Source: Planctomycetota bacterium | Lineage (GTDB): Bacteria; Planctomycetota; PLA2; JAEUHO01 | Reading direction: 5' to 3' | Assembly: GCA_020851795.1 (NCBI GenBank) | Contig: JADZCA010000013.1 | Span: forward strand, 7,428-71,427 | DNA length: 64,000 nt | The notes under the pieces: generated by a model | What the model was told of the DNA's origin: nothing | The model's database searches: none | The model's input: the letters and a program-made list of their open reading frames with translations, nothing else | Made by a program: the position numbers and the translations under genes | Part shown: in pieces, positions 10,636 through 46,017 of the stretch | How the letters are laid out: each line of letters starts with the position of its first letter | Numbering within the stretch: position 1 is the first letter of the stretch

Positions 10636-10655
10636 CACGTCGATTCGACGCCGCG

Positions 10656-10688
10656 ACGCGGGTCGCGCGGCATGCGCGCGACCCGCGT
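10656..10688 (+). terminator. GC-rich hairpin 21 nt after the EEP stop (candidate intrinsic terminator, no U-tract)
   Basis: acgcgggtcgcgcg / gcatg / cgcgcgacccgcgt: 14-bp perfect stem with a 5-nt loop. Confidence 0.4.
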
Positions 10689-10786
10689 ACGCGTTCGACG
10701 GGCGGCGTCGCACCGTCGATGCACGCGTGACGACCGCGAGAAGACCCTCGCATCGTGGGGGTCGTCTCGTTTACGCTAGCCCGGTC

Positions 10787-11344
10787 ATGCCTCGCGTCAC
10801 GTCGGCAGTGCGTCCGCGCGTCTCCACCACGCAAGCGGCTCCCTCCCTCTCTCCCGTCGTCGGCGTGCTCCACACCGGCGGCGAGTTCGGCGTCGTCGCG
10901 CTGCGCGACGTCGAGCCCGGCGAGGTCCTGATGACCATCGAGGGCGAGCGCGTCGGAAAGCCCTCTCGCACCTCGGTGCAGGTGAGCGAGCGGGACCACA
11001 TCGACGTGCCGGCGGCGTGGACCTTCGAGGAGGTCCTCGCGCGCGCGCCGTGGCGCTTCCTCAACCACGCGTGCGCGCCGACCGCGTGGGTGCGCGGGCG
11101 TGAGGTCGTCGCGCTACGGCGGATGGCGCGCTTCGACGCCGTCACCTTCGACTACACGACGACGGAGGCCGCGATGGCCACGCCGTTCGTGTGCCGGTGC
11201 GGCGCCTGCGGCGGTCGCGAGATCCGGGGCTTCCTGCACCTCGAGGCCGACGAGCAGCGGCGGCGCCTCCCGCACCTCGCGCCGTGGCTGCGCGCGCGCG
11301 TCGAGGGCCCGAGCCCGCGCGTCCGAGGGTCCCGCGGCGGATGA
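10787..11344 (+). CDS. SET-domain protein (putative protein-lysine methyltransferase)
   Basis: GEFGVVALRDVEPGEVLMTIEGE (N-SET), RFLNHACAPTAW (NHxCxPN), VTFDY, and a post-SET Cys cluster CRCGACGG. The stop overlaps the next start (ATGA). Confidence 0.7.
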   Translation: MPRVTSAVRPRVSTTQAAPSLSPVVGVLHTGGEFGVVALRDVEPGEVLMTIEGERVGKPSRTSVQVSERDHIDVPAAWTFEEVLARAPWRFLNHACAPTAWVRGREVVALRRMARFDAVTFDYTTTEAAMATPFVCRCGACGGREIRGFLHLEADEQRRRLPHLAPWLRARVEGPSPRVRGSRGG

Positions 11345-14300
11345 CCTCCGCGCCGGACCGCGACCGCGGGGCCGGGCCGACGGACGAGCTCTCCGAGGAC
11401 GTCCTCCCGGCGGTCTTCGCACGCACGGTGCGACGGCACGCCGACCGCGTCGCGGTGGACGTCCCGCCCGGCGACGGCCGCCCTGCTCGCACGACGTGGA
11501 CGTACGCGCGGCTCGACGCGGCCGCGGCACGCCTCGCGGCGGCGCTCGCGCCGTGGGCGGGCGCGGACCGCGTCGTCGCGATCCACCTGCCGCGCCACGA
11601 CCCCACGCTGTTCGCCGCGCAGCTCGCGGTCAGCCGTGCCGGCGCGGCGTGGACCTGCGTGGACGCGTCGTTCCCGGAGGACCACCTCGCCCACGTGCTC
11701 GCCGACGCGAAGGCGGTCGCCGTGCTCACCGACGCCGCGGGGGCCGCACGGCCGGCGGTCGCAGGCTCCGGCGTCGCGGTCCTCGACGCCGCGTCGCTGC
11801 TGTCGGACGCGGCTCCGGCCGCGGCGTCGGCGCCGCGGGGCACCGGGCCGAGGCCGTCGTCGCTGGCCTACGTGATCTACACGTCGGGCACGACCGGCCG
11901 TCCCAAGGGCGTCGCGATCGAGCAGCGTTCGATCGTCAACCTCGTCCGCGGCGACCTCGCGGCGTTCGGGCTCGGTCCCGGGGACCGCGTCGCGCAGGGG
12001 TCGTCGGCCGCCTACGACTCGTCGGTGGAGGAGTCGTGGCTCGCGTTCGCGTCGGGGGCGACGCTGGTCGTCCTCGACGACACGACGGCGCGCCTCGGGC
12101 CCGACCTCGTGCCCTTCCTGCGCGAGGAGGGCGTGACCGTCTTCTGCCCGCCGCCGACGCAGCTGCGGGCGACGGGCTGCGAGGACCCGCGCGCGGCGCT
12201 GCCGGGCCTGCGGCTGCTCTACGTCGGCGGCGAGGCCCTGACGCCCGACGTCGTCGAGCGGTGGGCGCCGGGGCGGCGCCTCGTCAACGGCTACGGCCCG
12301 ACCGAGACCACCGTCACGTCGCTGCGCGGCGACGTCGTCGCGGGCGGCCCCGTGACGATCGGGCGCCCCGTCCCGGGGCTCGAGGCCTTCGTGCTCGACG
12401 AGCGCCTCGAGCCCGTGCCCGACGGCGAGCCCGGTGAGCTGTTCCTCGGCGGTGCGGGCCTCGCGCGCGGCTACCTCGGCAACGACGACCTCACCGCCGA
12501 GCGCTTCCCGACCCACCCGCGCCTCGGCCGGCTCTACCGCACCGGCGACCTCGTGCGCCGCGACGGCGGGGGCGACCACCACTACCTCGGGCGCATCGAC
12601 GCGCAGGTGAAGCTGCGCGGCCACCGCATCGAGCTGTCGGCCGTCGAGGCCGTGATCGCCGCGTGCCCCGGCGTCCGCGCCGTCGGGTGTCGCGTGCAGG
12701 GGAGCGGCGCCGCCGAGCTGCTGGCGGCGCACGTCGTCCCGACCGACCCCGCGGCCCCGCCGCGCGTGGACGAGCTCGAGGCGGCCGTGCGTGCCCGCCT
12801 GCCGAGCGCGGCCGTGCCCGGGCGGTGGGCGTGGCGCGACGCGCTCCCCCAGAACCGCAGCGGCAAGCTCGACCGCGCGGCGCTCCCCGAGCTCGCCGCG
12901 CCCGCGCGCCACGGGGCCCGCGCGCACGTCGCCCCGCGCGACGCGCAGGAGCGCCGCGTCGCGGCCGCGGTGCGCAGCGTCCTCGCGCTCGACGCCGACG
13001 TCTCGGTCGAGGACGACTTCTTCCTCGACCTCGGCGGCACGTCGCTCTCCGCCGCCGTCGTCGTCTCGACGCTGCGGCGTGACCCGGTGTCGGCCGCGGC
13101 GGCCGTGCGCGACGTGTACGAGGGACGCACCGTCGCGGGCATCGCGCGGCGGATCGGCGCCGGGCGCCCCGTCGTGGCGTCGGCGGCGGGGGGCGCCCCG
13201 GGGCCCGCGCCGGTCCCCGCGGCCGCGTCGGTCGGGACGGCCGCGGTGCAGACGCTGTGGCTCCTCGCCGGGCTCGTGCTCTCCTCGGCCGCCGTCGCGT
13301 GGGTCTGGCTCGTGCTCGCGCCCGCCGCGCTCGCCCGCTTCGGCATCGCGGGCACGATGCTCCTCGCGCCGCTGGCGGCGCTCCTGCTCCAGCTCGTGTG
13401 GTTCCCGGGCTCGGTGCTCGTCGTCGCGGCGGCCAAGCGCGTGCTCGTCGGTCGCTACCGCCCGATGCGGGCCCCGGCCGAGGGCGGGTTCGCGCTCCGG
13501 CACTGGCTCGTGACCTCGTTGGCGCGGGCGATCCCGTGGTCGTGGGTGAGCGACACGGTCCTCGTCGGCGTGGCGCTGCGGGCGCTCGGGGCCCGCGTCG
13601 GGGCGCGCGTGCACGTCCACCAGGGCGTGGACCTCACGCGCGGCGGGTGGGACCTGCTCACGTTGGGCGACGACGCCTCGCTCGGGATGGAGTCGTCGGT
13701 GCGCCTCGTCGAGGTCGAGGCGGGCCAGCTCGTCGTCGGGCCCGTCACGCTCGGGCGCGGGGCGACGCTCGACGTCCGGGCGGGAGCGGGCGCCGACACC
13801 GAGCTCGGCGACGGGGCCTACCTCGGGCCGCTCTCCTCGCTCGCGCCCGGGGCGCGCGTCCCGGCGGGCGAGGCGTGGGCGGGCGTCCCGGCGAGCCGCG
13901 TCGGCGACGCACCGCGGCCCGTCGTGGACGGCGGCGCCCGCGCGATGTCGCCCGCGGCGCACGCCGTCCTCACGCTCGCGCTGCGCTTCCTGCGGCCGGT
14001 CGTCGGCGCGTACGGGGCCCTCGTGGCCGTCGTCGCGTGGTGGTGCGCGCGCAGCGGCTTCGACGGCGACGCGCTGATCGCGCTGCTCGCGCACCCCACG
14101 CCGTCGGCGACGGTGGGGGCGCTCGCGCTCCTCTACGCCGCGTCGGTGCCGGTGGGGCTCGTCGCGGCCGCGGTGGGCCTGCGGCTCGTCGGCCGCGTGC
14201 GGCCGGGCACGTGGTCGCGCTGGAGCGTCGCCTACCTGCGCATCCTCGCCAAGACCGAGACCGTGCGCCGCGCGGGCGACCTCCTCGCGGGCACGATGCT

Positions 14301-15351
14301 CTGGCCGCTGTGGCTGACGATGGCGGGGATGCGCGCGGGCCGCCGCTGCGAGGTGAGCACGGTCGAGGAGGTCGTCCCCGAGCTGGTCGAGGTGGGGGGC
14401 GGCTCGTTCCTCACCGACGGCATCTACCTCGGCCCGCCGCGCGTCGTCGCCGGCACGGTGACCGTCGCGGCGACGAGGCTCGGCGCACGCAGCTTCGTCG
14501 GCAACCACGTGGTCGTCCCGCCGGGGACGCAGCTGCCCGACGACGTGCTGCTGGGCGTCTCGACCTTGGCCGACGGGCGCATGCCCGCCGGCACCTCGTG
14601 GTTCGGCCACCCCGCGTTCGAGCTGCCGCGCCGCGAGGTCGTCGTCGCCGACGAACGGCTCACCCACCGTCCCGGCTTCGTCCGTTGGACGACGCGCCTG
14701 CTGTGGGAGCTCGCGCGCTTCCTCATCCCTGCGGGCAACGCGGCGGTGCTCCTCGCGTGGGCCGCGGGGCTGTCCGCGGCGGCCACCGCCTGGCACGGGC
14801 CCGCGCTCTGGTTCGTCGCCGCGCCGGCGCTCGGCTTCCTCGCCGCGGCCGTGCCCTGCGCGTGGGTGGTGGCGGCGAAGTGGCTGCTGCTCGGGCGCGT
14901 GCGGCCCGGCCAGCGCGGCTTCTGGTCGTGCTGGGCGAGCCGGTGGGACTTCCACTACGTGCTGTGGCAGGAGCACGCGCGGCGCGCGCTCTCGCACCTC
15001 GAGGGGACGCCCTGGCTCGCGTGGTACCTGCGCGCGATGGGGTGTCGCATCGGCCGTGGCGTGACGCTCGGGCCGGGCTTCGCACAGGTCGTGGACCCCG
15101 ACATGTTCGACCTCGAGGACGGCGTCACGATGAACGCCTACGTCCAGGCGCACAGCTTCGAGGACCGCGTCCTCAAGCTCGACCGCGTCCACGTCCGGCG
15201 CGGGGCGACGGTGGGGAGCCAGGCGCTGCTGCTCTACGGGGCCGACGTGGGGGAGGGCACGACCGTCGCCCCGCACAGCGTCGTCATGAAGCACGAGCGC
15301 CTGCTGGCGGGGCGTGCCTACGCGGGCGTCCCCACGCAGGCCACCGGCTGA
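11341..15351 (+). CDS. Pls-like single-module NRPS (homopoly-amino-acid synthetase architecture)
   Basis: A-domain cores: YTSGTTGRPKGV (A3), YDSS (A4), NGYGPTE (A5), YRTGD (A7), GRIDAQVKLRGHRIELSAVE (A8), NRSGKLD (A10). PCP motif FFLDLGGTSLSA. Then three TM pairs separating three hexapeptide/LbH-like soluble domains. Confidence 0.75.
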   Translation: MTSAPDRDRGAGPTDELSEDVLPAVFARTVRRHADRVAVDVPPGDGRPARTTWTYARLDAAAARLAAALAPWAGADRVVAIHLPRHDPTLFAAQLAVSRAGAAWTCVDASFPEDHLAHVLADAKAVAVLTDAAGAARPAVAGSGVAVLDAASLLSDAAPAAASAPRGTGPRPSSLAYVIYTSGTTGRPKGVAIEQRSIVNLVRGDLAAFGLGPGDRVAQGSSAAYDSSVEESWLAFASGATLVVLDDTTARLGPDLVPFLREEGVTVFCPPPTQLRATGCEDPRAALPGLRLLYVGGEALTPDVVERWAPGRRLVNGYGPTETTVTSLRGDVVAGGPVTIGRPVPGLEAFVLDERLEPVPDGEPGELFLGGAGLARGYLGNDDLTAERFPTHPRLGRLYRTGDLVRRDGGGDHHYLGRIDAQVKLRGHRIELSAVEAVIAACPGVRAVGCRVQGSGAAELLAAHVVPTDPAAPPRVDELEAAVRARLPSAAVPGRWAWRDALPQNRSGKLDRAALPELAAPARHGARAHVAPRDAQERRVAAAVRSVLALDADVSVEDDFFLDLGGTSLSAAVVVSTLRRDPVSAAAAVRDVYEGRTVAGIARRIGAGRPVVASAAGGAPGPAPVPAAASVGTAAVQTLWLLAGLVLSSAAVAWVWLVLAPAALARFGIAGTMLLAPLAALLLQLVWFPGSVLVVAAAKRVLVGRYRPMRAPAEGGFALRHWLVTSLARAIPWSWVSDTVLVGVALRALGARVGARVHVHQGVDLTRGGWDLLTLGDDASLGMESSVRLVEVEAGQLVVGPVTLGRGATLDVRAGAGADTELGDGAYLGPLSSLAPGARVPAGEAWAGVPASRVGDAPRPVVDGGARAMSPAAHAVLTLALRFLRPVVGAYGALVAVVAWWCARSGFDGDALIALLAHPTPSATVGALALLYAASVPVGLVAAAVGLRLVGRVRPGTWSRWSVAYLRILAKTETVRRAGDLLAGTMLWPLWLTMAGMRAGRRCEVSTVEEVVPELVEVGGGSFLTDGIYLGPPRVVAGTVTVAATRLGARSFVGNHVVVPPGTQLPDDVLLGVSTLADGRMPAGTSWFGHPAFELPRREVVVADERLTHRPGFVRWTTRLLWELARFLIPAGNAAVLLAWAAGLSAAATAWHGPALWFVAAPALGFLAAAVPCAWVVAAKWLLLGRVRPGQRGFWSCWASRWDFHYVLWQEHARRALSHLEGTPWLAWYLRAMGCRIGRGVTLGPGFAQVVDPDMFDLEDGVTMNAYVQAHSFEDRVLKLDRVHVRRGATVGSQALLLYGADVGEGTTVAPHSVVMKHERLLAGRAYAGVPTQATG

Positions 15352-25776: not shown

Positions 25777-27216
25777 CTACGTCCCCTCGGCCTTCGTCCA
25801 GCCGGGCTGGTTGTCGAAGCCGGGGTCGCTCGACCACTCGCCCCGCTCGGCGTTGAAGAACACGGGCGAGCCTGACGGTGCGTACGCCTCCTCTCCGTTG
25901 GGGCCCTTGACCGTGCGGTAGGGCATCAGCAGCGGGGCGAAGTCGGCGTGGATCTGCGCGGCCGTCTTCGCGCGCGAGAGCGCGATGTCGGCGTCGATCT
26001 TCGCGACGAGGTCGTCCACGATCGCGATCCCGCGGGCGTTCTCGTGCACGAGCCGGAGGTAGAGCAGCGACCACAGGCCCTGGAATCGGATCGAGAAGAC
26101 GCACCCCAGCAGCGGCGGGAGGTAGGCGTCGTAGCGGTCCGCCGGGGCCGCGATGCTCCAAGCGGCCCGTGGCCACCACATCGTCGTCCCGGGCATGTCG
26201 AAGTAGGTCAGCGCGACGAAGAACGTCTCGCGGTACGCCACGCCGTTCCAGCGGTACTCGACCGTCGTCGCGCCCGCGCGCACGGTGGACGTGACGCCGG
26301 TGACGCCGACGAACGCGTTGAGGCGCGCCGCCTCGTCCTGGTAGAGGCGCGCGAGGTCGGGGGAGGCCTTCGCGGCCACCACTCGCGCGCCCTCGACGTG
26401 CGGCGCGCGCAGGGTCGGGAAGAGGCGCTGCTCGACGTACTGCCGCGGGTCGAGCGGCGGCCACGCGGTGGTCCCGGCGTAGGTGCTGCCGGGCGGGAAC
26501 ATGGGGGCGGCGGGCATCCGGCTCGTGTCGGTGTAGCGCTCCTCCGGGAACACCTCGATCCACGCCGAGCGGTCGGGCGCGACGACGCGGAACGCCACCA
26601 CGGCGGGCGAGGCGAGGTCGCTGCGGTCGATCGTCCGCGGGTCCTTCCCCGCGATCTTCCACCGGATGCCTCCCTCGACCGGCCAGCCGCTCGGGACCGC
26701 CATGCGCAGCACGTCGAGCACCGCGCCGTTGCGCGGGTCGCGCAGCCCCTGCGGGTCCTGCAGCCGCCACGTCCGGAACACGGTCGGCACGCCGGGCGCC
26801 CGCGCGGCAGGCGCCCCGCCCGGGGCGAGCTTCCCGCCCGGCGAGGTCGTCGAGGGTGGGGGCGCCGGACGGTCGGCGTCCGCGTCGCGTGCGAGCCACA
26901 GCCCCTTGCCGTCCTCGTCGGTCAGCTCGAGGCGGTCGTCGGCGGGCATCGCCCACCGCACGCGCTCGACGGCCTCGCCGCGGGGCTCCGCGACGATCAC
27001 GCTGCCCTCGACGCGGTAGGTGCCCTCGGTCGTCGTCGTGCCTCGGGGCGTCCGCACGGTCCACGCGTAGGTGCCGTCGCCGCGCAGCACGAGCCGCACC
27101 TCGCCGGTCGCGTCCCTGGCGAGCCACGTCCCCGGGAGGCGGTCGGGCCCGGCGCGCGCGACTCCCGCGAAGGCGACGACGAGGAGCGCCACGGCCACGA
27201 TCGCGCGGGTACGCAT
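25777..27216 (-). CDS. hypothetical secreted protein
   Basis: Signal peptide MRTRAIVAVALLVVAFAGVARA. 479 aa. Last gene of the long minus-strand cluster. Confidence 0.5.
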   Translation of the reverse strand: MRTRAIVAVALLVVAFAGVARAGPDRLPGTWLARDATGEVRLVLRGDGTYAWTVRTPRGTTTTEGTYRVEGSVIVAEPRGEAVERVRWAMPADDRLELTDEDGKGLWLARDADADRPAPPPSTTSPGGKLAPGGAPAARAPGVPTVFRTWRLQDPQGLRDPRNGAVLDVLRMAVPSGWPVEGGIRWKIAGKDPRTIDRSDLASPAVVAFRVVAPDRSAWIEVFPEERYTDTSRMPAAPMFPPGSTYAGTTAWPPLDPRQYVEQRLFPTLRAPHVEGARVVAAKASPDLARLYQDEAARLNAFVGVTGVTSTVRAGATTVEYRWNGVAYRETFFVALTYFDMPGTTMWWPRAAWSIAAPADRYDAYLPPLLGCVFSIRFQGLWSLLYLRLVHENARGIAIVDDLVAKIDADIALSRAKTAAQIHADFAPLLMPYRTVKGPNGEEAYAPSGSPVFFNAERGEWSSDPGFDNQPGWTKAEGT

Positions 27217-27299
27217 CGCAGATCCTCCCCGGGGCCCTCATTCTCCCGCGCGCGGGCCGCCCGATCCCACGACGCACGACTGCGCCGGAGGGGGCCCCG

Positions 27300-27326
27300 G
27301 ACGGCGGCGTGCCCTGCGCCGCCGTC
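27300..27326 (-). terminator. hairpin overlapping the stop of the upstream gene
   Basis: gacggcggcg / tgccctg / cgccgccgtc: 10-bp perfect stem. Confidence 0.3.
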
Positions 27327-28506
27327 ACTTCACGTCGCTGCGCTCGGTCGCCTTCGCCTGCGAGTACTCGTCGTCGGAGATCGGGACCACCGAGACGTCG
27401 TCGAACGCGTAGCGGCCCCGCGGCCAGTAGCCGTACAGCATCACGCGCATCCGCGCGACGGCCGGCGTGTTCTTGGTCGGGTGGAACACCATCGTGTGCG
27501 TCTTCCAGCCGGGCGAGCCCATGCGCAGCGTGACCAGCGCGTCGTAGAGCCGGCGCTCCTCGGGGCCCGCCGTGTTCTCGAGCGCCCCGTAGCCGCGCAC
27601 CCACACCTTCGCCGTCCCCTGCGGCAGGTCCGTGCGGAACGCGAGCCGAAGCCGGTAGGGCCTCCCGGGCTCGACCGCCATCGCCTCGGAGTACACCGAC
27701 ACGCCGTGGTTGCCGCCGACGGTGGCGTACTGGTCCTTCTCGGGCACGGGGGTCTTGGGCCACGGCGGGAGGTCCGGGTCCTTCGCCATCTCCTCCTGCC
27801 GTCGCTTCCACTCGTGCTCGTACACGTCGGTGTCGAGAGCGACGACGTGCCCGTGGCGCGCGGGGTCCACCGCGTCGAGGACCCAGAAGGACGTGAGCCC
27901 GTCCATGCGGTCCCAGCCGATCGGGGTCGCCTTGCCGGTGAGCGCCTCCTCGAAGGAGCCGTTGCGGACGAGCTCGCCGGCCGTCGCGGGCGCGCTCGCT
28001 CCGAGCGCCGCGGTGGCCGCCTGGAACGCCGCGACCCGCGGGGCGACGTCGGCGGGGGACGCGCCTGCGGCGAGACGCCGGTCGGGCGCGGTCAGTCGGT
28101 CGAGCGCCCAGCGCAGGAGCGCGGGCGAGCGGAACGTGTACGCGCGGCCCCCTCGTTCCGGGGCGCGGAACCCGTGCTCGGTGACGACGACGACGAGGTT
28201 CGCGTCGTTCCCCCGCACGACCGTGAGGCGTCCGAGCTCGGGTGCCGGCGACGGCAGGAGGAGGACGAGCGCCGCGGGCGCGGCCGCGAGGTGGTCGAGC
28301 GCGATCGAGATCTCGGCGTCGCGCTCCACGCGGACGCACGGCACGGGCTCGCCGTCGGGCCGGTCGGGGAGCGCGAGGACGATGCCGTCCGGCGCTGCCC
28401 GTCGCGCGGAGGCCACGCGCTCGGGCCACGTGGGCCACTCCTCGCCGCGGGCCGACGCCGCGGCGAGCAGGAGCAGCGTGAGGACGAGGGGTGCCACGGG
28501 CTTCAT
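27325..28506 (-). CDS. hypothetical secreted protein
   Basis: Signal peptide MKPVAPLVLTLLLLAAASARG. The start lies 1 nt from the upstream gene's stop. Confidence 0.5.
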   Translation of the reverse strand: MKPVAPLVLTLLLLAAASARGEEWPTWPERVASARRAAPDGIVLALPDRPDGEPVPCVRVERDAEISIALDHLAAAPAALVLLLPSPAPELGRLTVVRGNDANLVVVVTEHGFRAPERGGRAYTFRSPALLRWALDRLTAPDRRLAAGASPADVAPRVAAFQAATAALGASAPATAGELVRNGSFEEALTGKATPIGWDRMDGLTSFWVLDAVDPARHGHVVALDTDVYEHEWKRRQEEMAKDPDLPPWPKTPVPEKDQYATVGGNHGVSVYSEAMAVEPGRPYRLRLAFRTDLPQGTAKVWVRGYGALENTAGPEERRLYDALVTLRMGSPGWKTHTMVFHPTKNTPAVARMRVMLYGYWPRGRYAFDDVSVVPISDDEYSQAKATERSDVK

Positions 28507-28507
28507 G

Positions 28508-31500
28508 TCACTTCCCCGGGGCGGGCCCCGCGCCGCGCGAGAGCGCCTCGTAGAACGCCTTGACCACCGCCTCGAGGCCCGGCGGCACGGGTTCGCGCAG
28601 CCCGGAGAACAGCTCGCGACGCACCTCGGGCGACAACGCTGCCCCCTGCGCGCGCAGCGTGTCGGCCTCGGCCACGAGGGCGCGGCGGGCGAGCTCGAGC
28701 GCGGACTTCACGTCGGCGTGCGCCTGGCGGAGGTCGAAGCCGCGGCCGGCGGCGATGTTCTCCTCGATGCGCTTCATGCGCGCGATCGCGTCGTCCACGT
28801 CGCCCGCGGGCAGGTGCAGCGCGCGCAGCCAGCGCTGCAGGCGCTCGGCCTGCTGGCGCAGCTCGCCCTGGTTGCCGCGGAGCCGCTCGAGCTTGGCCTG
28901 CACCGGCGGCGGGGGCGTCCCGCGCAGGCCCGTGTCGCCCTGGCCCGCGACCTTGCCGCCGCCGGTGGCGCCGCCCCGCGGGTCCTTCGACGAGTCCTTG
29001 ACCGACCCCGCCTCGAACGGCGACTCGGTCTTGCGCGTCGGGGTCTCGCGGCCGCCCTTGCCCTCGGCGGTCTCCTCGACCATCTGCCCGTGGCTCTTGC
29101 CGCTGCGGCCCTCGCCCGAGCGGCCGCCGATCTCGTTCTGGTTGGGCAGCCGGTTGCCCGTGATGCCGCGCGCGCTCATGTTCGAGATCGGCCCGTCCGT
29201 CGCGTCCCACCCCGCGCCCTTGTCGAGCGAGTCCATCCAGGACGACGAGACGTCCTCGACGTCCTCGTCCATCTGCGCCTCGTCGTCGAGCAGGTCGCCC
29301 ACGATGTCCTCGAGCTCGTCGGGGAGGTCGGCGAGCGGGACGTCGTACTCCTGCGGCGGCTCCTCCATGACCCACTTCTCGCGGTCGGGGGTGTCGGGGA
29401 TCCAACGCTCGAGGTTGGTCTCGAGCCGCTCGGCCAGCTCGAGGCCCGACTGCTCGGCGGGCACCGCGAGCTCGACCTTGCGGTCCGAGAGCGCCTCGGC
29501 GGCGCGCTGCACCTCCATGTAGACCTGATTGAGCTCCTTCAGCAACGACCCGTCCGCGAAGTCCTGCGACGGCACCTTCGAGAGGTCGGTGAAGGCCTCC
29601 TCGAACAGCTTGGCCCACGCGGCTTCCTGCGCGGCGAGGCTCCCGAGCAGCGCCTCGTCGCCCTGCGTCAGGTCCTCGCTCGCGCGCTTCTCGACGTCCT
29701 TGGTGGCGTCGAGGACCTTGCGCTGCTCCGAGACGAACCGCGCGAGGTCCTGCGCGAGCTGCGAGAGGCGGTCGGCGGGGGAGCGCGGCGCCTCGGCGAC
29801 CGGCTTGGGCGCGCCCTCGGGCGGGGCCTTCGCCGCGAGCTCGCCGAGGAGCGCGAGCAGCCGCGCGACGAGCCGGTCGTCGGCGTCGCGCGCACGCGCG
29901 AGCGCACCCCGCGCGTCGCCGGGGCGCCTCGTCTCGGCCATCGCGGCGCGCGCGGTCGCGAGCTCCTCCTCCCGCGCGGCCGCGAGCGTCGCCGCGGCCT
30001 TCGCGCCGGTGGGCTCGGCGCGGAACAGCGCCTCGACCTCGGCGAAGCGCGCCGGGAGCGCCTCGTGGCCCGCCCGGGCCTCCTCGGCGCGGCGGGCGAG
30101 CCGACCCTCGCGCTCGTGCTCGGCGTAGAGGTCGAGCAGCGTCCCGACCCGCGCGCGCTCGGCCCGCACGGCCTCCACGAGGGCGCGCAGGCGTTCGAAG
30201 GCCCGCGCGAGCGGGGACCCTTCCGGCGCGCGCAGGTCCTGGGGGCCGCGCACGCGCACGAGCACCGGGGCCGACCGCGCCCGGCTCGTGCGCGCGGGCG
30301 CGCGGTCGTCGGCCTCGGCCACGAAGCGGTACGTGCGGCCCGGCTCGAACCCGCCGGGGTCGAGCACCACCGACGGGCGCTCGCGCGCCGCGGCGGGGCC
30401 CGGCGCGGGGAAGGGGACCTGCCATAGCGTCACCTCCTTCGCCTCGCCCTCGACCGACCCGACGAGGCGCAGCGCCGCGAGCCCGACGTCGTCCTCGGCG
30501 CGCACGGCGAAGTCCACGCGCTCGCCCGGGTCCACGACGAGGCTTTGCGCCGACGCCTCGAGGCGGACCGCGGGCAGCGCGTCCTCGACGGCAGCCCAGG
30601 TCGTCACCGGCACGTCGGCCGCCTCCACGCCGTCCTCGCCGAGCAGGCGCGCCGTCACCGGACCGCCGCGCTCGACGCGGACCGAGGTCGCGAAGCGCCC
30701 GTCGGCGAGGCGCTCCGCCGCCTGCGGGCTCGCGCCCGGGAACGTCACCTTCCCCTCGCGGCACGGGCGCGTGGTCGAGAGGACGAGCGTCGCCTCCGTG
30801 CCGACGAGCGCGGCCACGCCCGCGGGGCCCACGGGGAGCTCCTCGGGCGCGCGTCCGGTGTAGGCGGGCGGGACGAGCCGGACCGCGACGGCCGCGATCG
30901 CCGGCCGGTGCATCACCTCGATGCGGTACCACGGGCTCGCGGCCGCGCCGGCGAGGACACGGTAGCGCAGGGCCACCGCCTCCACGTCCACGCGCGCCTC
31001 GAAGCGGCGCTCCGTGGACAGCGTGCCGCGCGCCGACATCGGGGTGCGCTGCGCCGTGCGGCCGTCCACCTCGACCTCGACGTCGGCGTCGCTGGGGAGC
31101 CTCGCGGCGAGCTCGGCCCGCACGCGCGCCCGCACGTCGACCGACGAGCCCGTCGGCACGCGCGTCGCGCCGGGGCTCACCTCGACGACCAGCCCGCCCG
31201 GCGCGGGCGCGGCCTCGAACGGCCGCAGGAACCGCACGACCGCCGCGCCCGACGCGCCGGGCCACAGCAGCGCGCCCAGCGCCGCGACCGCACCCGCCGC
31301 GGCCAGCACCGTCGCGGCGCGCGCGATGCGCGGCCCCTCGCCGGCCGACCGCGCGTCCACCCGCACCGCCACGTGGCCGGCCTCGGCGACGACCCGCTCG
31401 GCGAGCGAGGGCGCGACGCCGGCGCGGCCCTCGCGCGCGTCGGCGTCGAGCAGCACCGCGTCGATGAGCGGGTTGCCCGGCAGCGCGCAGCGCGTCTCGA

Positions 31501-31771
31501 GCAGGCGCGCCGCCTCCGCGCGGCTCGGGCGCACGCGCGCCGCCACCGAGAGCCGCCACGCGAGCGCGAGCACCGCCGCGGGCCCGAGCAGGACGAGGAG
31601 CGCGAGCCGCAGCGCCGCGGGGAGGTCGAAGGCGACGTCGAGCAGGAGCGCGAGGACCCAGGCCGTCAGCAGCGCCGCGGCCCCGCGGGTCGCCTCGACG
31701 GCGAAGGCCGCGCGGCGGCGCGTGGCGGCCGCGCGGTCGAGGAGGGCGTCGAACGAGGCGGGGCGGCTCAT
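28508..31771 (-). CDS. large membrane-anchored coiled-coil protein (BatD/DUF4175-like component of MoxR-VWA operons)
   Basis: ATG (MSRPASFDALL) overlaps the upstream stop (ATGA). Two N-terminal TM helices, Ig-like middle part, long acidic coiled-coil region, and a Gly/Ser-rich segment. Confidence 0.5.
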   Translation of the reverse strand: MSRPASFDALLDRAAATRRRAAFAVEATRGAAALLTAWVLALLLDVAFDLPAALRLALLVLLGPAAVLALAWRLSVAARVRPSRAEAARLLETRCALPGNPLIDAVLLDADAREGRAGVAPSLAERVVAEAGHVAVRVDARSAGEGPRIARAATVLAAAGAVAALGALLWPGASGAAVVRFLRPFEAAPAPGGLVVEVSPGATRVPTGSSVDVRARVRAELAARLPSDADVEVEVDGRTAQRTPMSARGTLSTERRFEARVDVEAVALRYRVLAGAAASPWYRIEVMHRPAIAAVAVRLVPPAYTGRAPEELPVGPAGVAALVGTEATLVLSTTRPCREGKVTFPGASPQAAERLADGRFATSVRVERGGPVTARLLGEDGVEAADVPVTTWAAVEDALPAVRLEASAQSLVVDPGERVDFAVRAEDDVGLAALRLVGSVEGEAKEVTLWQVPFPAPGPAAARERPSVVLDPGGFEPGRTYRFVAEADDRAPARTSRARSAPVLVRVRGPQDLRAPEGSPLARAFERLRALVEAVRAERARVGTLLDLYAEHEREGRLARRAEEARAGHEALPARFAEVEALFRAEPTGAKAAATLAAAREEELATARAAMAETRRPGDARGALARARDADDRLVARLLALLGELAAKAPPEGAPKPVAEAPRSPADRLSQLAQDLARFVSEQRKVLDATKDVEKRASEDLTQGDEALLGSLAAQEAAWAKLFEEAFTDLSKVPSQDFADGSLLKELNQVYMEVQRAAEALSDRKVELAVPAEQSGLELAERLETNLERWIPDTPDREKWVMEEPPQEYDVPLADLPDELEDIVGDLLDDEAQMDEDVEDVSSSWMDSLDKGAGWDATDGPISNMSARGITGNRLPNQNEIGGRSGEGRSGKSHGQMVEETAEGKGGRETPTRKTESPFEAGSVKDSSKDPRGGATGGGKVAGQGDTGLRGTPPPPVQAKLERLRGNQGELRQQAERLQRWLRALHLPAGDVDDAIARMKRIEENIAAGRGFDLRQAHADVKSALELARRALVAEADTLRAQGAALSPEVRRELFSGLREPVPPGLEAVVKAFYEALSRGAGPAPGK

Positions 31772-32916
31772 CGGGGGCCCTCCGGGCGGCGGACGGCGTG
31801 CACTTCGCGCTCGACGGTGGCGCCCGCTTCGACCGCGATCGCGGCGAGGCGCGGCTCGACCGCCGCGTCGGGCGGCTCCTCGCCGTCGGCGAGCACCGTC
31901 CGTAGCAGGTTCGCGCGGCCGTCGAGCCGCCACTCGTGCTCGAGGCGGTGCGCGGTCCACACGTCCACCGCGACGAGCGCCTGCGCGCGGCCGCGCTCGC
32001 CGTCGAACGTCGTCGGGCGCAGCACCCGCTTCCAGACCGCGACGCGCGCGGCGTCGCGGTCGCCGCCCACGCCCACGAGCCGGCGCGCGTCGTAGAGGTC
32101 GTCGCCCTTCGCGACGAGCTCGGAGAGCGGCGCGGCGTCGTCCTCGGGGACGATCGGACGCGCGGCCGCCGGCGACGGCGCGACGCCGACGAGGGCGTGT
32201 GCGCCGGCGAGGACGGCCAGGTCGTAGGTGTCGGCGGGGAGCCCGTCGAAGCGGACCCGGCCGGCGGTCGCGTCCTCGACGGTCCCGGCGTAGGCGAGGC
32301 GTGCCCGGTGCCCGTACGCGCCCGCCGCCCGCACGGCGCCGCCGTCGCGCAGCGTCACGCGCAGGGTCGCGAGGCGAGCGGGGACCGCCTCGGGCACGTC
32401 GAGGAAGCGCACCTCGCGCGCGTAGACGAGGTCGTCGAGCGTCTGGCCCACCTCGCCCTTCCACTGCCGACGCAGCAGCACCTTGCGCTCGTCGGGGTCC
32501 TCGGCGCCGCCACGCTCGGGCCCGAGGACGCGGACGACCGTCGTGCGCAGGTGACCCTCCGCGCGCTCGCCGCTGCGCAGCACGAGGGTGACGAGGAGGT
32601 TGCGCAGCGGGTAGCGCCCCTCGCCGAAGGACTTCTCGTCCTTGCCGGGCGTCTTGAAGGTGTAGGGCCGCTCGAGCGCCTCGTCCTCGACCCGCGAGAG
32701 GACCGCCGCGAGCTCGGCGGGGTCCACGTCGCGGCCCTTGCCGGTCGCCGGGTCGACGAGGTGCAGCGAGCGTCCCACCGTGAACACGAGCCGCCCCTGT
32801 GCGCTCGTCCCGTCCGAGAAGACGACGCGCCCCGGCCGTCCCGCCTCCTCGGCGGCGACGCGACCCGCGAGCGCCGCGACGACGAGGACCACCGGCACGA
32901 GTCGGGCGAGGCTCAC
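31768..32916 (-). CDS. hypothetical secreted protein
   Basis: GTG start at 32916 overlaps the BatB-like stop (GTGA). Signal peptide SLARLVPVVLVVAALAG. Confidence 0.45.
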   Translation of the reverse strand: MSLARLVPVVLVVAALAGRVAAEEAGRPGRVVFSDGTSAQGRLVFTVGRSLHLVDPATGKGRDVDPAELAAVLSRVEDEALERPYTFKTPGKDEKSFGEGRYPLRNLLVTLVLRSGERAEGHLRTTVVRVLGPERGGAEDPDERKVLLRRQWKGEVGQTLDDLVYAREVRFLDVPEAVPARLATLRVTLRDGGAVRAAGAYGHRARLAYAGTVEDATAGRVRFDGLPADTYDLAVLAGAHALVGVAPSPAAARPIVPEDDAAPLSELVAKGDDLYDARRLVGVGGDRDAARVAVWKRVLRPTTFDGERGRAQALVAVDVWTAHRLEHEWRLDGRANLLRTVLADGEEPPDAAVEPRLAAIAVEAGATVEREVHAVRRPEGPR

Positions 32917-37108: not shown

Positions 37109-37110
37109 CG

Positions 37111-38012
37111 TCACCGTCCGATCCGCGTGCGCGCGTGGACGAAGCGGGCGAGCTCGGTCGCGAACGGCCGCGAGGTCGAGAGGACGCGGTGCTCGACGCA
37201 CGCCTCGGCCGTGACGCGCCCGAGGCCCCGCAGCCAGGCGGCGACGGCGTCACGGTAGGCGTCGCGGACGGTGCCGGCCTCGACGGGGAGGCGCTCGCCC
37301 GTCTCGGCGTCCTCGAGCTCGACGAGGCCGTGCCAGGGGAGGTCGGTCTCGGCGTCGTCGAGCACCTGCAGGACGGTGACGTCGTGGCGGTCGTGGCGCA
37401 GCCGGCGCAGCCCGTGCGCGACGTCGTCGGGGTCGTCGTGCAGGTCGGAGACCAGCACGACGACGCTGCGCCGGCGCAGCCGTGTCGCGACGGCGCGCAG
37501 CGCGTTGCCCACGCCCGTCGTCCCGTCGGGCTCGAAGGCCTCCAGCGTCTCGAGCGCCTCGCGCACCGCCGTCGGCGAGCCGCGGGCGGGGAGCACGCGG
37601 TCCACCCGGTCGCCGAAGACGACGAGGCCCGCCGCGTCGCGCTGGCGGTGGAGCAGGTAGACGAGCCCGCCGGCCAGCGAGCAGGCGTACGCCCACTTGG
37701 TGGGGCGGTCGTCGGCCCCGCGGAACGCCATCGACGCGCTGCGGTCCACGAGCACGAAGGCCTGGAGGTTGGTCTCGTCCTCGTACTGGCGCACGACGCG
37801 GCGGTCCGCGCGCGCGAGCACGCGGAAGTCGAGGAAGCGCACCGGGTCGCCGGGCACGTACTCGCGGTACTCGGCGAACTCCACGGACGCGCCCTTGTGG
37901 CGCGAGCGGTGCAGCCCGGCGATCCGCCCCTCGACGGGCCCGCGCGGCGACAGCACGAGGCCGTCGAGGGCCTCCTGCGTCGCGGGCGTCAGGTAGCGGA
38001 ACGCGCGGCCGC

Positions 38013-38016
<4 letters not shown>
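37111..38016 (-). CDS. DUF58-family protein (MoxR partner)
   Basis: VLVDRSASM-like motif and DUF58 topology. ATGA overlap with the MoxR stop. Confidence 0.7.
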
Positions 38017-39470
<1,454 letters not shown>

Positions 39471-39473
39471 GGG

Positions 39474-43138: not shown

Positions 43139-43222
43139 GACGACGCATCCTCCGACAACGCAACGTCCTTCGATACCCCGGACGTCCCCTCCGGGTTTCT
43201 CCCGAATCGGCGCGACGTCGCG

Positions 43223-43240
43223 TGCAACGGATCCGTTGCA
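43223..43240. promoter_or_regulatory. perfect 18-bp palindrome TGCAACGGATCCGTTGCA in a divergent promoter region
   Basis: Lies between the operon start (43138, -) and the octahaem cytochrome start (43343, +). Flanked by imperfect GC inverted repeats. Confidence 0.4.
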
Positions 43241-43342
43241 GCGACGCGACGCCGACGGAAGCCCGACGGCGTCGCTCGCGTTGCGCGCTCGGGGGCGCGC
43301 GCGCGTCGGCAGGCGACGATCGCGGCGTCCTCGGAGGGCGCT

Positions 43343-45256: not shown

Positions 45257-45387
45257 CCCCCGCGCGGGACGGCGCGGCGCGGTCCGCCGCGCTCCGGCGG
45301 TCGCGCGGGGCCCGCGCCGGGCGACCGGGTGGGGCACGACCCGGCGGGAAACGTGACATCGGCGCGGCGGCGCGGCATGACGGCGGC

Positions 45388-46017
45388 GTGCCCCGCGACC
45401 TCGCCGACGAGCTCCCGCTGCGCTCGCGCACCTCCCGCCGGTGGGCCGAGGCGGCGCTGGCGGACCCGCTCGCGCTGCTCGACGACCACGCGCACCTTGA
45501 GCGCAAGGCGGCCGCGAACGCGCTGGCGCTGTGGACGCGCGCGCCGGTGGAGCTCGACGACGACGCGCACGCGACATGGACGCGGGTGCTCGCGTCGGTG
45601 GCGCGCGACGAGGCCGAGCACCTCGCGCTCGTCCTGCGCGTGCTGGCGCGTCGCGGCGGGGTGCCGTCGCGGCGCCACCGCAACGCGTACGCCGCGGCCC
45701 TGCACCGCCACGTCCGCACCGGCGCGGGGCGGGACGAGGTCGTGGACCACCTCCTCGTCTGCGCGCTGATCGAGGCGCGTTCGTGCGAGCGCTTCGAGGC
45801 GCTCGCGGCCGCGGCGACCGACGAGGAGCTGCGCGCCCTGTTCCACGGCCTCTGCGCGTCCGAGCGGGGGCACCACCGCGTCTTCCTCGAGCTCGCCGCG
45901 GCCGTGGCGGGGCCGGAGGCCGTGCGGGCCCGGTTCGACGCGCTGCTCGGGCTCGAGGCGCTCGACCTCGCCGCCCAGCCGCCCGGGCCGAGGGTGCACG
46001 CCGGCGAACCCCGCTGA
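45388..46017 (+). CDS. miaE: MiaE-like diiron tRNA (ms2io6A37) hydroxylase
   Basis: DDHAHLERKAAANALAL and LLVCALIEARSCERFE ferritin-like motifs. GTG start in the frame of ORF 40585..46017. Confidence 0.6.
   Translation: MPRDLADELPLRSRTSRRWAEAALADPLALLDDHAHLERKAAANALALWTRAPVELDDDAHATWTRVLASVARDEAEHLALVLRVLARRGGVPSRRHRNAYAAALHRHVRTGAGRDEVVDHLLVCALIEARSCERFEALAAAATDEELRALFHGLCASERGHHRVFLELAAAVAGPEAVRARFDALLGLEALDLAAQPPGPRVHAGEPR

What the first reader, a model, noticed from the sequence alone, without database searches (positions are those of the whole stretch)
10787..15351. SET-domain methyltransferase translationally coupled to a Pls-like poly-amino-acid synthetase
The SET-domain ORF has NHxCxPN, FDY and post-SET Cys cluster motifs. 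It ends in ATGA, sharing that sequence with the start of a 1336-aa enzyme. That enzyme has one adenylation domain and one carrier domain, followed by three (TM pair + hexapeptide/LbH domain) units. This is the architecture described for epsilon-poly-L-lysine synthetase and related cationic homopoly-amino-acid synthetases. SET domains are lysine N-methyltransferases. A SET gene fused in an operon to a poly-lysine-type synthetase suggests methylation of the polymer, its monomer, or the synthetase itself. I know of no characterised system pairing these two, so I cannot anchor the idea in a precedent.
Basis: partly seen in the sequence, partly recalled or inferred. Interest (0 to 1): 0.85.

Follow-up and report, generated by a model that had tools for sequence, protein, structure and literature searches.

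The report
SET methyltransferase paired with polyamino-acid synthetase
A small methyl-transferring enzyme gene overlaps the start of a membrane enzyme of the kind that strings one positively charged amino acid into chains; this two-gene unit recurs in at least six bacterial phyla and is undescribed in the searchable literature, and it probably makes a methylated polycation rather than ordinary poly-lysine.

Summary
A 185-aa SET-domain gene (10787-11344) shares ATGA with a 1336-aa gene (11341-15351) for one adenylation domain, one carrier domain and three TM-pair plus beta-helix units. This is the Pls/PosA architecture.

The pairing is not chance. Of 80 genome loci found with the SET protein, 69 carry the synthetase directly downstream, across Planctomycetota, Verrucomicrobiota, Actinomycetota, Acidobacteriota, Pseudomonadota and Armatimonadota. 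Other neighbours vary.

Three results change the interpretation.
- The adenylation pocket code is DSECYGGVTK, nearly invariant in the clade. It matches no Lys, Orn, Dab or Dap code. The one same-code domain assayed (Patel 2023) ignored those four and modestly activated L-arginine.
- The nearest solved relative of the SET protein is BurB. BurB methylates free methionine on the pathway to DMSP, which a thiotemplate adenylation domain loads, so a precedent exists.
- SET is accessory. Only about a third of same-code synthetases in metagenomes have it, decayed SET remnants occur, and no synthetase residue tracks its presence.

Best reading (0.4): an optional tailoring methyltransferase acting after monomer selection. 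Main rival (0.28): BurB-like supply of a methylated monomer. New variant of a known kind, testable in cultured Lentzea and Amycolatopsis.

The parts
10787..11344 (+). SET-domain methyltransferase gene (185 aa), stand-alone, no TM segment or signal peptide evident by eye
   Evidence: Pfam SET 25.9 bits against cut-off 22.4. GC3 0.93 in this frame. AF2 model pLDDT 88.7. Foldseek probability 1.0 to SET structures with BurB on top. 318 representatives at E<=1e-30.
11063..11083 (+). SAM-binding NHxCxP motif (N93 H94 A C96 A P98 T99)
   Evidence: N93, H94, C96 and P98 are invariant in 105 family members. BurB H93 at the equivalent position binds the SAM adenine (PMC12542666).
11051..11053 (+). W89, a family-specific Trp at the position of BurB S88, which lies between substrate and SAM
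   Evidence: Trp in 99% of 105 family members, Ser in BurB (PMC12542666).
11147..11167 (+). F121-D-Y123-T-T-T-E127: active-site Tyr and the conserved TTE loop
   Evidence: Y123 and E127 are invariant, and BurB has Y124 and E128.
11192..11209 (+). post-SET Cys cluster C136-x-C138-x2-C141 (presumed Zn site together with C96)
   Evidence: C136 and C138 invariant, C141 in 99%. BurB has the same CxCGxxxC. Metal binding is inferred.
11341..11344 (+). ATGA: synthetase start codon overlapping the SET stop codon
   Evidence: Read directly. The same 4-nt overlap occurs in 36 of 94 pairs.
11341..15351 (+). Pls/PosA-type single-module synthetase gene (1336 aa)
   Evidence: GC3 0.98. The top 120 homologs are about 50-62% identical, plus one 99% copy, and are of similar length (1280-1385 aa apart from two fusion proteins of 1669 and 1706 aa).
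11416..12885 (+). Adenylation domain; pocket residues 226, 227, 230, 269, 294, 296, 317, 325, 326, 509 = D S E C Y G G V T K
   Evidence: AMP-binding 244.5 bits and AMP-binding_C. Code derived and identical to the string printed for two homologs in PMC10522769 Supplementary Table 2.
12955..13155 (+). Carrier (thiolation) domain with phosphopantetheine Ser568 in LGGTSL
   Evidence: PP-binding 32.7 bits. G566 and S568 invariant in alignment A3.
13261..13428 (+). TM pair 1 (residues 641-659 and 678-696)
   Evidence: Hydropathy peaks 2.26 and 2.14.
13453..13950 (+). Soluble domain C1 (about residues 705-870)
   Evidence: Inside the TIGR02353 match. Homologous to C2 (E 6e-5) and C3 (E 2e-8).
13978..14175 (+). 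TM pair 2 (residues 880-898 and 927-945)
   Evidence: Hydropathy peaks 1.56 and 2.13.
14188..14700 (+). Soluble domain C2 (about residues 950-1120)
14719..14871 (+). TM pair 3 (residues 1127-1145 and 1159-1177)
   Evidence: Hydropathy peaks 1.57 and 1.99.
14893..15348 (+). Soluble domain C3 (residues 1185-1336) with a hexapeptide-repeat hit
   Evidence: Hexapep 35.9 bits at residues 1283-1315.

Best explanation
The two genes form a self-contained, translationally coupled module from an uncultured, very GC-rich Planctomycetota genome. The large protein is a membrane-embedded, single-module synthetase of the Pls/PosA kind. Its A domain adenylates one cationic amino acid and loads it on the carrier domain. 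The three TM-anchored beta-helix domains then join units into a polycationic chain. It belongs to a large uncharacterised clade whose pocket (DSECYGGVTK) is built for a side chain of lysine length or longer, with a bulkier cationic head than lysine. The best current hint is arginine-like; it is not Lys, Orn, Dab or Dap. The SET protein is a SAM-dependent methyltransferase dedicated to this pathway but optional for it. I propose that it acts after the A domain has chosen the monomer, on the carrier-bound unit or on the released chain (its free amines or its growing end). SET-bearing strains would then make a methylated version of the polymer that SET-less relatives make unmethylated. Shown: architecture, coupling, conservation, pocket code, SET fold and catalytic motifs, and the accessory distribution. 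Inferred: the identity of the monomer, the atom methylated, and the timing of methylation.
For: Conserved pair: 69 of 80 SET loci have the synthetase next door, in at least six phyla and with unrelated other neighbours. Junctions are tight. SET and synthetase distances co-vary (r = 0.86, Mantel p = 0.001). SET keeps every catalytic hallmark in 105 members, so it is an enzyme and not a relic. Accessory status: only 24 of 64 evaluable same-code synthetase loci have SET upstream. L098 and L148 retain only a 70-aa C-terminal SET stub and L097 has a frameshifted copy, each beside an intact synthetase. At least 11 gains or losses are needed on a 111-tip tree. The closest homolog P0021 and a Blastocatellia homolog have no SET within 8-10 kb. 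The code is DSECYGGVTK with or without SET. No synthetase alignment column tracks SET presence; the best is G220 at 89% against 29%. A domain that reads the same substrate in both situations fits methylation after selection. Fusions of this SET family to an ATP-grasp ligase and to a domain carrying a PP-loop-like SGGVDS motif tie it to amide-bond-forming small-molecule chemistry.
Against: No SET enzyme is known to methylate an isopeptide polymer or a carrier-bound amino acid. The nearest characterised relative, BurB, acts on a free amino acid in a pocket that closes over it (PMC12542666). The SET family is near neutral (median pI 6.5, net charge -1), not the acidic surface expected for gripping a polycation. 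If the monomer really is arginine, the methyl acceptor is unclear. Absence of SET was tested only within about 3-10 kb of the synthetase, so some 'SET-less' genomes may encode it elsewhere; 8 of 77 evaluable SET loci are orphans and L107 has SET on the far side.
Confidence: 0.4

Rival explanations
1. BurB-like precursor supply. SET methylates a free amino acid, most attractively L-lysine to N-epsilon-di- or trimethyl-lysine. The A domain then selects that methylated, permanently or strongly cationic monomer, and the product is a polymer of it. SET-less relatives would use a look-alike such as L-arginine in the same pocket.
For: BurB is the top hit by sequence profile (64 bits, E 8.7e-17, against 46.7 bits for MLL1) and by fold. 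BurB methylates free Met, and a derivative is loaded by an A domain (PMC12542666, PMC7496086). The strand and loop that bind the free amino acid in BurB are conserved here (Q65, T126, E127, F134). Unlike BurB, this family keeps the canonical N93-H94 and F-D-Y of lysine methyltransferases and has an invariant Trp at the methyl-transfer site. In the pocket, Ser at the chain-length position (Ala in Lys enzymes, Met in PosA) and Gly in place of the amine-bonding Thr304 of PosA imply 'lysine length plus extra bulk' (PMC10522769; inference). The same-code A domain rejects Lys and accepts Arg, which I note is nearly isosteric with N-epsilon-dimethyl-lysine (own reasoning). SET is upstream and translationally coupled.
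Against: About two thirds of same-code synthetases have no SET nearby and remain intact. Their code is identical and no residue discriminates them. This requires one pocket to serve two monomers. A di- or trimethylated side-chain amine cannot be the nucleophile, so linkage would have to switch to the alpha-amine, which is unknown in this enzyme family. No SET enzyme is known to N-methylate a free amino acid.
Confidence: 0.28
2. SET methylates a protein: a lysine of the synthetase itself, as a regulatory or maturation step, or another cellular protein, for example as self-protection against the polycation.
For: Most characterised SET enzymes are protein lysine methyltransferases, and histone methyltransferases are the next-best structural matches. 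Translational coupling would give matched amounts of the two proteins. Orphan SET genes exist.
Against: No lysine of the synthetase is conserved specifically in SET-linked members. The seven lysines conserved above 95% are conserved regardless of SET. The closest relative acts on a small molecule. Fusions are to small-molecule ligases. Nothing else in the neighbourhood is conserved that could be a target.
Confidence: 0.1
3. One reading: an epsilon-poly-L-lysine (or Orn, Dab or Dap) synthetase whose lysine monomer or polymer is N-methylated by a lysine-specific SET enzyme.
For: Pls/PosA architecture and the conserved D226/E230 cation-binding pair. Canonical lysine-methyltransferase motifs in SET.
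Against: The pocket code differs from every characterised code of the family at positions 2, 4, 5 and 7. The assayed same-code domain did not prefer any of the four diamino acids (PMC10522769). TIGR02353 scores below its curated cut-off, consistent with a divergent clade.
Confidence: 0.07
4. No functional link: SET sits next to the synthetase by chance or genomic hitch-hiking.
For: SET is dispensable in many lineages, and a few SET genes are orphans.
Against: 69 of 80 adjacency across at least six phyla with otherwise unrelated neighbours, 4-nt overlaps and co-varying distances.
Confidence: 0.03

Closest known systems
Pls, epsilon-poly-L-lysine synthetase of Streptomyces albulus (A-domain structure 7WEW)
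   Same: One A domain, one carrier domain, no canonical condensation or thioesterase domain, and six TM helices interleaved with three tandem soluble domains (TIGR02353). Asp and Glu at pocket positions 1 and 3 for a cationic substrate.
   Different: Pocket DSECYGGVTK differs from the Lys-type code at the chain-length, supporting-polar and deep-pocket positions. TIGR02353 score is just below the cut-off. The gene is preceded by an overlapping SET gene.
PosA, delta-poly-L-ornithine synthetase of Acinetobacter baumannii (PMC10522769; 8G95-8G98)
   Same: Same architecture and family. Shows that the family extends outside actinomycetes and that the pocket code predicts the monomer.
   Different: PosA code is DMEHNGTVSK. 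[quoted passage not shown] Thr304, which contacts the substrate amine in PosA, is replaced here by Gly; Ser313 is a conservative Thr.
Same-code homologs in Patel et al. 2023: Bdellovibrionales bacterium OFZ39577.1 ('Bdello_A') and Novosphingobium sp. WP_072382105.1
   Same: Identical 10-residue code DSECYGGVTK, so they belong to the clade of the window's synthetase.
   Different: Only the isolated A domain was assayed (modest L-Arg activity, none of note with Lys, Orn, Dab or Dap). No product is known, and the paper's main text contains no word beginning 'methyltransferase'. I could not check whether those two genes have a SET neighbour.
BurB-BurA of Burkholderia thailandensis (PMC7496086, PMC12542666; 9L4T, 9L4V)
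   Same: A small stand-alone bacterial SET enzyme of about 170-185 aa with the same CxCGxxxC tail, and the closest solved relative of the window's SET. It methylates an amino acid to a cationic species that is processed and then loaded by an A domain of a thiotemplate enzyme.
   Different: About 25% identity. BurB has Ser88 and Leu92 where this family has invariant Trp89 and Asn93. BurB makes a sulfonium from Met and works with a decarboxylase, transaminase and dehydrogenase that are absent here. Its partner is an NRPS-PKS, not a Pls-type polymerase.
Eukaryotic SET lysine methyltransferases (MLL1/KMT2A, NSD, ASH1L)
   Same: Fold, NHxC motif, F/Y-D-Y catalytic Tyr and post-SET zinc cluster.
   Different: Those act on lysines in histone tails within multi-domain proteins. 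This one is a minimal single domain in a two-gene biosynthetic module.

Membership tests
SET-domain methyltransferase superfamily (Pfam PF00856) | Match to the SET profile above the curated threshold | tested here: met
   25.9 bits against 22.4. The family profile hits PDB SET domains at E 1e-11 to 1e-17.
SET-domain methyltransferase superfamily (Pfam PF00856) | SET fold | tested here: met
   AF2 pLDDT 88.7. Foldseek probability 1.00 to BurB, MLL1, NSD1/2 and ASH1L.
SET-domain methyltransferase superfamily (Pfam PF00856) | NHxCxPN cofactor motif, (F/Y)DY tyrosine, post-SET Cys cluster | tested here: met
   N93, H94, C96, P98, Y123, C136 and C138 are invariant and C141 is in 99% of 105 members. 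The window has Thr instead of the last Asn.
SET-domain methyltransferase superfamily (Pfam PF00856) | SAM-dependent methyl transfer | not testable with these tools
   Needs an enzyme assay.
BurB-type methionine S-methyltransferase | Closest relative among characterised proteins | tested here: met
   Top hit by profile (64.3 bits) and by fold (E 3.6e-9, TM 0.56-0.65).
BurB-type methionine S-methyltransferase | Same residues at the methyl-transfer site (BurB S88, L92, Y124) | tested here: not met
   This family has W89 and N93 where BurB has S88 and L92. Only the Tyr is shared (PMC12542666).
BurB-type methionine S-methyltransferase | Context with SMM decarboxylase, transaminase and dehydrogenase (burI, burD, burE) | tested here: not met
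   No such genes were found beside the pair in the window or in the related loci examined.
BurB-type methionine S-methyltransferase | Activity on free L-methionine | not testable with these tools
   Needs an assay.
Pls/PosA family synthetases (TIGR02353; cationic homo-poly-amino-acid synthetases) | A domain plus carrier domain with no canonical condensation or thioesterase domain | tested here: met
   Only AMP-binding, AMP-binding_C, PP-binding and Hexapep were found.
Pls/PosA family synthetases (TIGR02353; cationic homo-poly-amino-acid synthetases) | C-terminal ~700-aa domain matching TIGR02353 at the curated score | tested here: inconclusive
   389.6 bits against cut-off 423.1, but aligned over model positions 2-694 of 695.
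Pls/PosA family synthetases (TIGR02353; cationic homo-poly-amino-acid synthetases) | Six TM helices in three pairs, each followed by one of three homologous soluble domains | tested here: met
   Hydropathy. C1 against C2 E 6e-5 and C1 against C3 E 2e-8.
Pls/PosA family synthetases (TIGR02353; cationic homo-poly-amino-acid synthetases) | Asp (position 1) and Glu (position 3) of the pocket code for a cationic amino acid | tested here: met
   D226 and E230. Stated as conserved in all family members in PMC10522769.
Pls/PosA family synthetases (TIGR02353; cationic homo-poly-amino-acid synthetases) | Product is an isopeptide-linked homopolymer | not testable with these tools
   Needs expression and MS or NMR.
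epsilon-poly-L-lysine synthetase in the strict sense | Lys-type pocket code (Ala at the chain-length position, polar Ser/Thr supporting the epsilon-amine) | tested here: not met
   The code is DSECYGGVTK. The same-code domain is inactive on Lys in PMC10522769.

The most novel reading that the evidence does not exclude
The module makes a natural polymer not yet described: a homopoly(amino acid) of a methylated, permanently cationic unit such as N-epsilon-di- or trimethyl-lysine, or a methylated arginine-like residue. The SET protein would be the first SET-class N-methyltransferase shown to work on a free or carrier-bound amino acid. The DSECYGGVTK pocket would be the first A-domain code for a quaternary or tertiary ammonium side chain. 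SET-less clade members would make the arginine-based counterpart.
Probability: 0.25. Interest if true: 0.85.

Novelty: new variant of a known kind. Interest (0 to 1): 0.68.

Why it matters
Polycationic poly(amino acid)s such as epsilon-poly-lysine are commercial food preservatives and useful cell-penetrating materials, and only about seven natural types are known. The clade studied here is large and spread through soil and freshwater phyla. Its product is unknown, and the one published assay left its monomer open. A dedicated, conserved methyltransferase partner gives a concrete chemical hypothesis for that open question. It extends the very short list of bacterial SET enzymes with a biosynthetic role; BurB was the only one found in the searchable literature. 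It also points to cultured strains where the idea can be tested directly: Lentzea terrae, L. nigeriaca DSM 45680, L. aerocolonigenes NBRC 13195, Amycolatopsis pigmentata, Planosporangium spp. and Gandjariella thermophila. Natural SET-plus and SET-minus relatives provide a ready-made comparison.

Tried and rejected
- Other conserved partner genes. All-against-all clustering of ORFs within 3 kb of 163 loci found only SET and its antisense shadow. No peptidase, transporter or alternative methyltransferase is shared. Lentzea has a genus-specific PucR regulator, a Glu/Leu-dehydrogenase-like gene and an amino-acid permease.
- Context of orphan SET genes (L013, L018, L048). Neighbours are an ABC transporter, a T2SS ATPase and housekeeping genes, which tells us nothing.
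- Synthetase residues that track SET presence. None is clean; the best is G220.
- A SET-specific conserved lysine in the synthetase. None was found.
- Co-variation of a variant code (DSECHGD[VI][TV]K, Gemmataceae) with a variant SET. It is inconsistent: L120 has a divergent SET, while P0133 and P0050 have none.
- Riboswitch or other Rfam element upstream of SET. None was found, only a chance miRNA-model hit on a GC hairpin. No sigma-70-like promoter was found.
- Acidic surface as a sign of polycation binding. The family pI is about 6.5, which is uninformative to mildly negative.
- Literature linking SET to Pls, NAPAA or cationic homopolymers. Nothing was found in five searches. Subscription-only papers are not covered.
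- The initial guess that the window was actinobacterial or myxobacterial from its 77% GC was wrong. Its FTHFS is 100% identical to a protein that NCBI labels 'MAG: Planctomycetes bacterium'.
- Inspection of the SET substrate channel in 3D was not possible, because model coordinates are not exposed.
Full report
**1. What is in the window**

The window is about 77% G+C. Third-position GC analysis gives clean gene calls.
- A 185-aa ORF at 10787-11344 (+) has GC3 0.93.
- A 1336-aa ORF at 11341-15351 (+) has GC3 0.98.
- The second ORF's ATG lies inside the sequence GGATGA, which also holds the first ORF's TGA.
- An endonuclease/exonuclease/phosphatase-family gene ends at 10635, 151 nt upstream.
- A convergent gene ends at 15364, 12 nt downstream.
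- Further neighbours are a sigma-54 response regulator, a histidine kinase, an aldo-keto reductase and a multihaem cytochrome.
- The window's formate-tetrahydrofolate ligase is 100% identical to an NCBI protein labelled 'MAG: Planctomycetes bacterium'. Its next relatives (88-73% identity) are also labelled Planctomycetota. The source is therefore an uncultured planctomycete.

**2. The two proteins**

The small protein passes the Pfam SET threshold (25.9 against 22.4 bits). It has N93-H94-x-C96-x-P98, F121-D-Y123 and C136-x-C138-x2-C141. An AlphaFold model built on 17 homologs has mean pLDDT 88.7. It matches SET structures with Foldseek probability 1.0.

The large protein has the following features.
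- AMP-binding (244.5 bits), AMP-binding_C, PP-binding and a hexapeptide-repeat hit.
- An end-to-end alignment to TIGR02353 'Pls/PosA family non-ribosomal peptide synthetase' at 389.6 bits, a little below the curated 423.1.
- Hydropathy peaks in three pairs: 641-659/678-696, 880-898/927-945 and 1127-1145/1159-1177.
- Soluble stretches after each pair that are homologous to each other (E 6e-5 and 2e-8).

**3. The pair is conserved**

The word-indexed search found only 19 SET homologs. The first three contexts examined all showed a 1310-1319-aa A-PCP-hexapeptide gene overlapping the SET stop by 4 nt, amid unrelated neighbours.

A profile scan of one genome per GTDB species found 301 genomes with a relative.
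- Of the best 80 loci, 69 have the synthetase directly downstream on the same strand.
- Three of the remaining 11 end too close to the contig edge to judge.
- Record titles with an adjacent synthetase span six phyla:
  - Planctomycetota: Phycisphaerales, Planctomycetia, Isosphaeraceae and Tepidisphaera.
  - Verrucomicrobiota.
  - Actinomycetota: Lentzea, Actinocrispum, Amycolatopsis, Pseudonocardia, Planosporangium and Gandjariella.
  - Acidobacteriota.
  - Pseudomonadota: Steroidobacteraceae and Sphingomonas.
  - Armatimonadota: Chthonomonas.

Among 94 pairs, 36 have a 4-nt overlap (27 ATGA, 8 GTGA), 2 a 1-nt overlap, 19 other overlaps, 26 a gap of at most 30 nt and 10 a gap of 31-150 nt. Start codons were chosen as those nearest the SET stop.

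Pairwise distances of SET and synthetase correlate (r = 0.86, Mantel p = 0.001). Clustering of all flanking ORFs found no third conserved gene. This is a two-gene module.

**4. The synthetase is not a lysine enzyme**

I mapped the ten Stachelhaus positions by motif onto residues 226, 227, 230, 269, 294, 296, 317, 325, 326 and 509. This gives D S E C Y G G V T K.
- The string is identical in 63 of 70 SET-linked synthetases that are only 45-54% identical overall.
- It is identical in 110 of the 120 best database homologs, and the rest differ at one or two positions.
- Patel et al. 2023 (PMC10522769) print exactly this code for a Bdellovibrionales (OFZ39577.1) and a Novosphingobium (WP_072382105.1) homolog.
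[quoted passage not shown] - Their PosA structures assign position 2 to chain-length selection (Met for Orn, Ala for Lys, Phe for Dap). Thr304 and Ser313 contact the side-chain amine.
- Here position 2 is Ser, position 7 is Gly and position 5 is Tyr. From this I infer a pocket for a side chain at least as long as lysine, with a bulkier and less hydrogen-bonded cationic head.
- Their main text contains no word beginning 'methyltransferase'.

**5. What kind of SET enzyme**

A profile of the family against all PDB sequences puts BurB (9L4T) first at 64.3 bits and E 8.7e-17. MLL1 follows at 46.7 bits. Foldseek also ranks the three BurB chains first.

BurB is a 172-aa SET enzyme of Burkholderia thailandensis that S-methylates free L-methionine to S-methylmethionine. 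It binds the amino acid through main-chain atoms (PMC12542666). The product is converted to DMSP, which the A domain of the NRPS-PKS BurA loads (PMC7496086). A SET enzyme working on the route to a thiotemplate A domain's substrate is therefore precedented.

Across 105 members of the present family:
- Q65, H71, N93, H94, C96, P98, Y123, E127, F134, C136 and C138 are invariant, and most are shared with BurB.
- BurB's Ser88, which its authors place between substrate and SAM, is Trp (99%) here.
- BurB's Leu92 is the canonical Asn.

Identity to BurB is about 25%. There is no burI/D/E-like context. This is a sister family, not a BurB ortholog, and its substrate may differ.

In 1.84 billion representatives the family has 318 members at E<=1e-30. 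These include fusions of an ATP-grasp (D-Ala-D-Ala-ligase-like) domain to two SET domains. One fusion joins a domain carrying an SGGVDS motif, which I read as PP-loop-like, to SET. These fusions again link the family to enzymes that activate carboxylates of small molecules.

**6. SET is accessory**

The reverse test used a synthetase profile against metagenome contigs.
- All 80 loci returned belong to the same-code clade.
- Of 64 with at least 500 nt upstream, only 24 have SET there.
- One more locus (L107) has SET just downstream on the other strand.
- Three of the 24 are damaged. L098 and L148 keep only the last ~70 codons after a stop, with the NHxC half gone, and L097 has a frameshift. Each synthetase next to them is intact.
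- The closest non-identical homolog of the window's synthetase (P0021, 62% identity) has no SET within 8 kb. A Blastocatellia homolog has none within 10 kb, and two Gemmataceae homologs have none within the flanks fetched.

On a neighbour-joining tree of 111 synthetases, SET status is clustered. The nearest neighbour agrees in 65 of 74 SET-plus and 28 of 31 SET-minus tips. At least 11 changes are still needed.

No alignment column separates the two groups; the best is G220 at 89% against 29%. No lysine is conserved only in SET-linked enzymes.

From the two scans I estimate that orphan SET genes could serve at most a few percent of SET-less synthetases. This estimate mixes two different collections and is rough.

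**7. Interpretation**

The functional link is secure. What SET methylates is not.

Two lines of evidence pull in different directions.
- The BurB relationship, the shape of the A-domain pocket, the rejection of lysine and the acceptance of arginine (close in shape to N-epsilon-dimethyl-lysine, by my own reasoning) favour a methylated monomer made before loading.
Intact synthetases with the same code and no discriminating residue thrive without SET. The A domain must therefore read a generally available, unmethylated substrate in those lineages. The simplest assumption is that it reads the same one when SET is present.

I therefore rank the explanations as follows:
- Tailoring after selection, on the carrier-bound unit, the free amines of the chain or its growing end: 0.40.
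- Precursor supply: 0.28.
- A protein target: 0.10.
- The plain poly-lysine version: 0.07.
- Coincidence: 0.03.

The near-neutral pI of the SET family is a mild point against polymer binding. The lack of any precedent for SET action on an isopeptide chain is another.

**8. Comparison with known systems and novelty**

The synthetase works like Pls and PosA and meets the architectural criteria of that family. It fails the test for a lysine (or Orn, Dab or Dap) enzyme and sits just below the TIGR02353 cut-off.

The SET protein is a member of the SET superfamily and a relative, not a member, of the BurB type.

I found no paper that connects a SET gene with a Pls-type synthetase. BurB was the only SET enzyme in a thiotemplate pathway that the searches returned. 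The library lacks most subscription journals, so this absence is not proof.

I classify the finding as a new variant of a known kind: a Pls/PosA-type polycation synthetase clade of unknown product with a dedicated but optional SET methyltransferase.

**9. Limits**

- No biochemistry was done.
- The monomer hint rests on one published assay of one isolated domain.
- Absence of SET was assessed only locally.
- Start codons in other loci were chosen heuristically.
- The tree is distance-based, and its sample is enriched for SET-bearing loci because half the loci were found through SET.

Noticed in passing
proteins P0260, P0261, P0262, P0263 (representative library): Proteins of 960-1479 aa built from 5-9 tandem copies of this same small SET domain, each with its own NHxC, DY..TE and CxCG..C motifs (sequence of P0261). 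P0018 (313 aa) is a two-copy version. The function and source organisms are unknown.
   Followed up: partly
proteins P0377, P0389, P0363: Single 631-674-aa proteins that fuse an ATP-grasp ligase domain (D-Ala-D-Ala-ligase-like, PF07478) to two SET domains. The C-terminal one belongs to the FFYPSTEW sub-branch of this family. This is a second kind of amide-bond-forming enzyme physically joined to this SET family.
   Followed up: partly
protein P0386: A 563-aa protein with a ~400-aa N-terminal domain carrying an SGGVDS motif, which I read as PP-loop ATP-pyrophosphatase-like. It has no Pfam or NCBIfam hit. The domain is fused to a C-terminal SET domain of this family.
   Followed up: no
proteins P0072 (Tepidisphaera sp., 1706 aa; genome locus L023) and P0134 (1669 aa): Same-code synthetases that also carry PF04235 and PF07786 hits (DUF418 and a family I recall as an HGSNAT-like membrane acyltransferase). 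This hints at acylation or export of the product in some lineages.
   Followed up: no
window 10651-10690 and 10743-10763: A long GC-rich palindrome follows the stop of the upstream EEP-family gene. A second 9-bp-stem hairpin followed by GTCTCGTTTA ends 24 nt before the SET start codon. It could be a terminator insulating the module or a 5'-leader structure. No Rfam family matches.
   Followed up: partly
loci L098 (1396-1596), L148 (2745-2945) and L097 (2334-2944): Decaying SET genes next to intact synthetases: a C-terminal 70-codon stub after a stop codon (the same sequence from two samples) and a frameshifted copy.
   Followed up: yes
locus L107 (6934-7449, minus strand): The SET gene lies immediately downstream of the synthetase on the opposite strand instead of upstream. 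This alternative arrangement preserves the linkage.
   Followed up: partly
loci L164 and L165 (Blastocatellia), 57 nt downstream of the synthetase: SET-less Blastocatellia synthetases are followed by a BrkB/YihY-family membrane protein gene (PF03631) and preceded by a glyoxalase-like gene.
   Followed up: no
window 25777-41018 (minus strand): A Bat/MoxR-type operon (BatA N-terminal domain, DUF58/VWA, MoxR AAA+ with an FHA domain, DUF4159) runs on into five large ORFs (393-1087 aa) with no Pfam hit at E<=1e-5. A 1520-aa ORF at 41015-45577 (-) was missed by my GC3 filter.
   Followed up: no
loci L007, L024, L037, L057, L048: Several MAG records with this module carry implausible organism labels for their context or G+C (for example 'Akkermansia muciniphila' from lake samples, 'Klebsiella', 'Bifidobacteriaceae'). 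Taxon names in the locus table should be read with caution.
   Followed up: no
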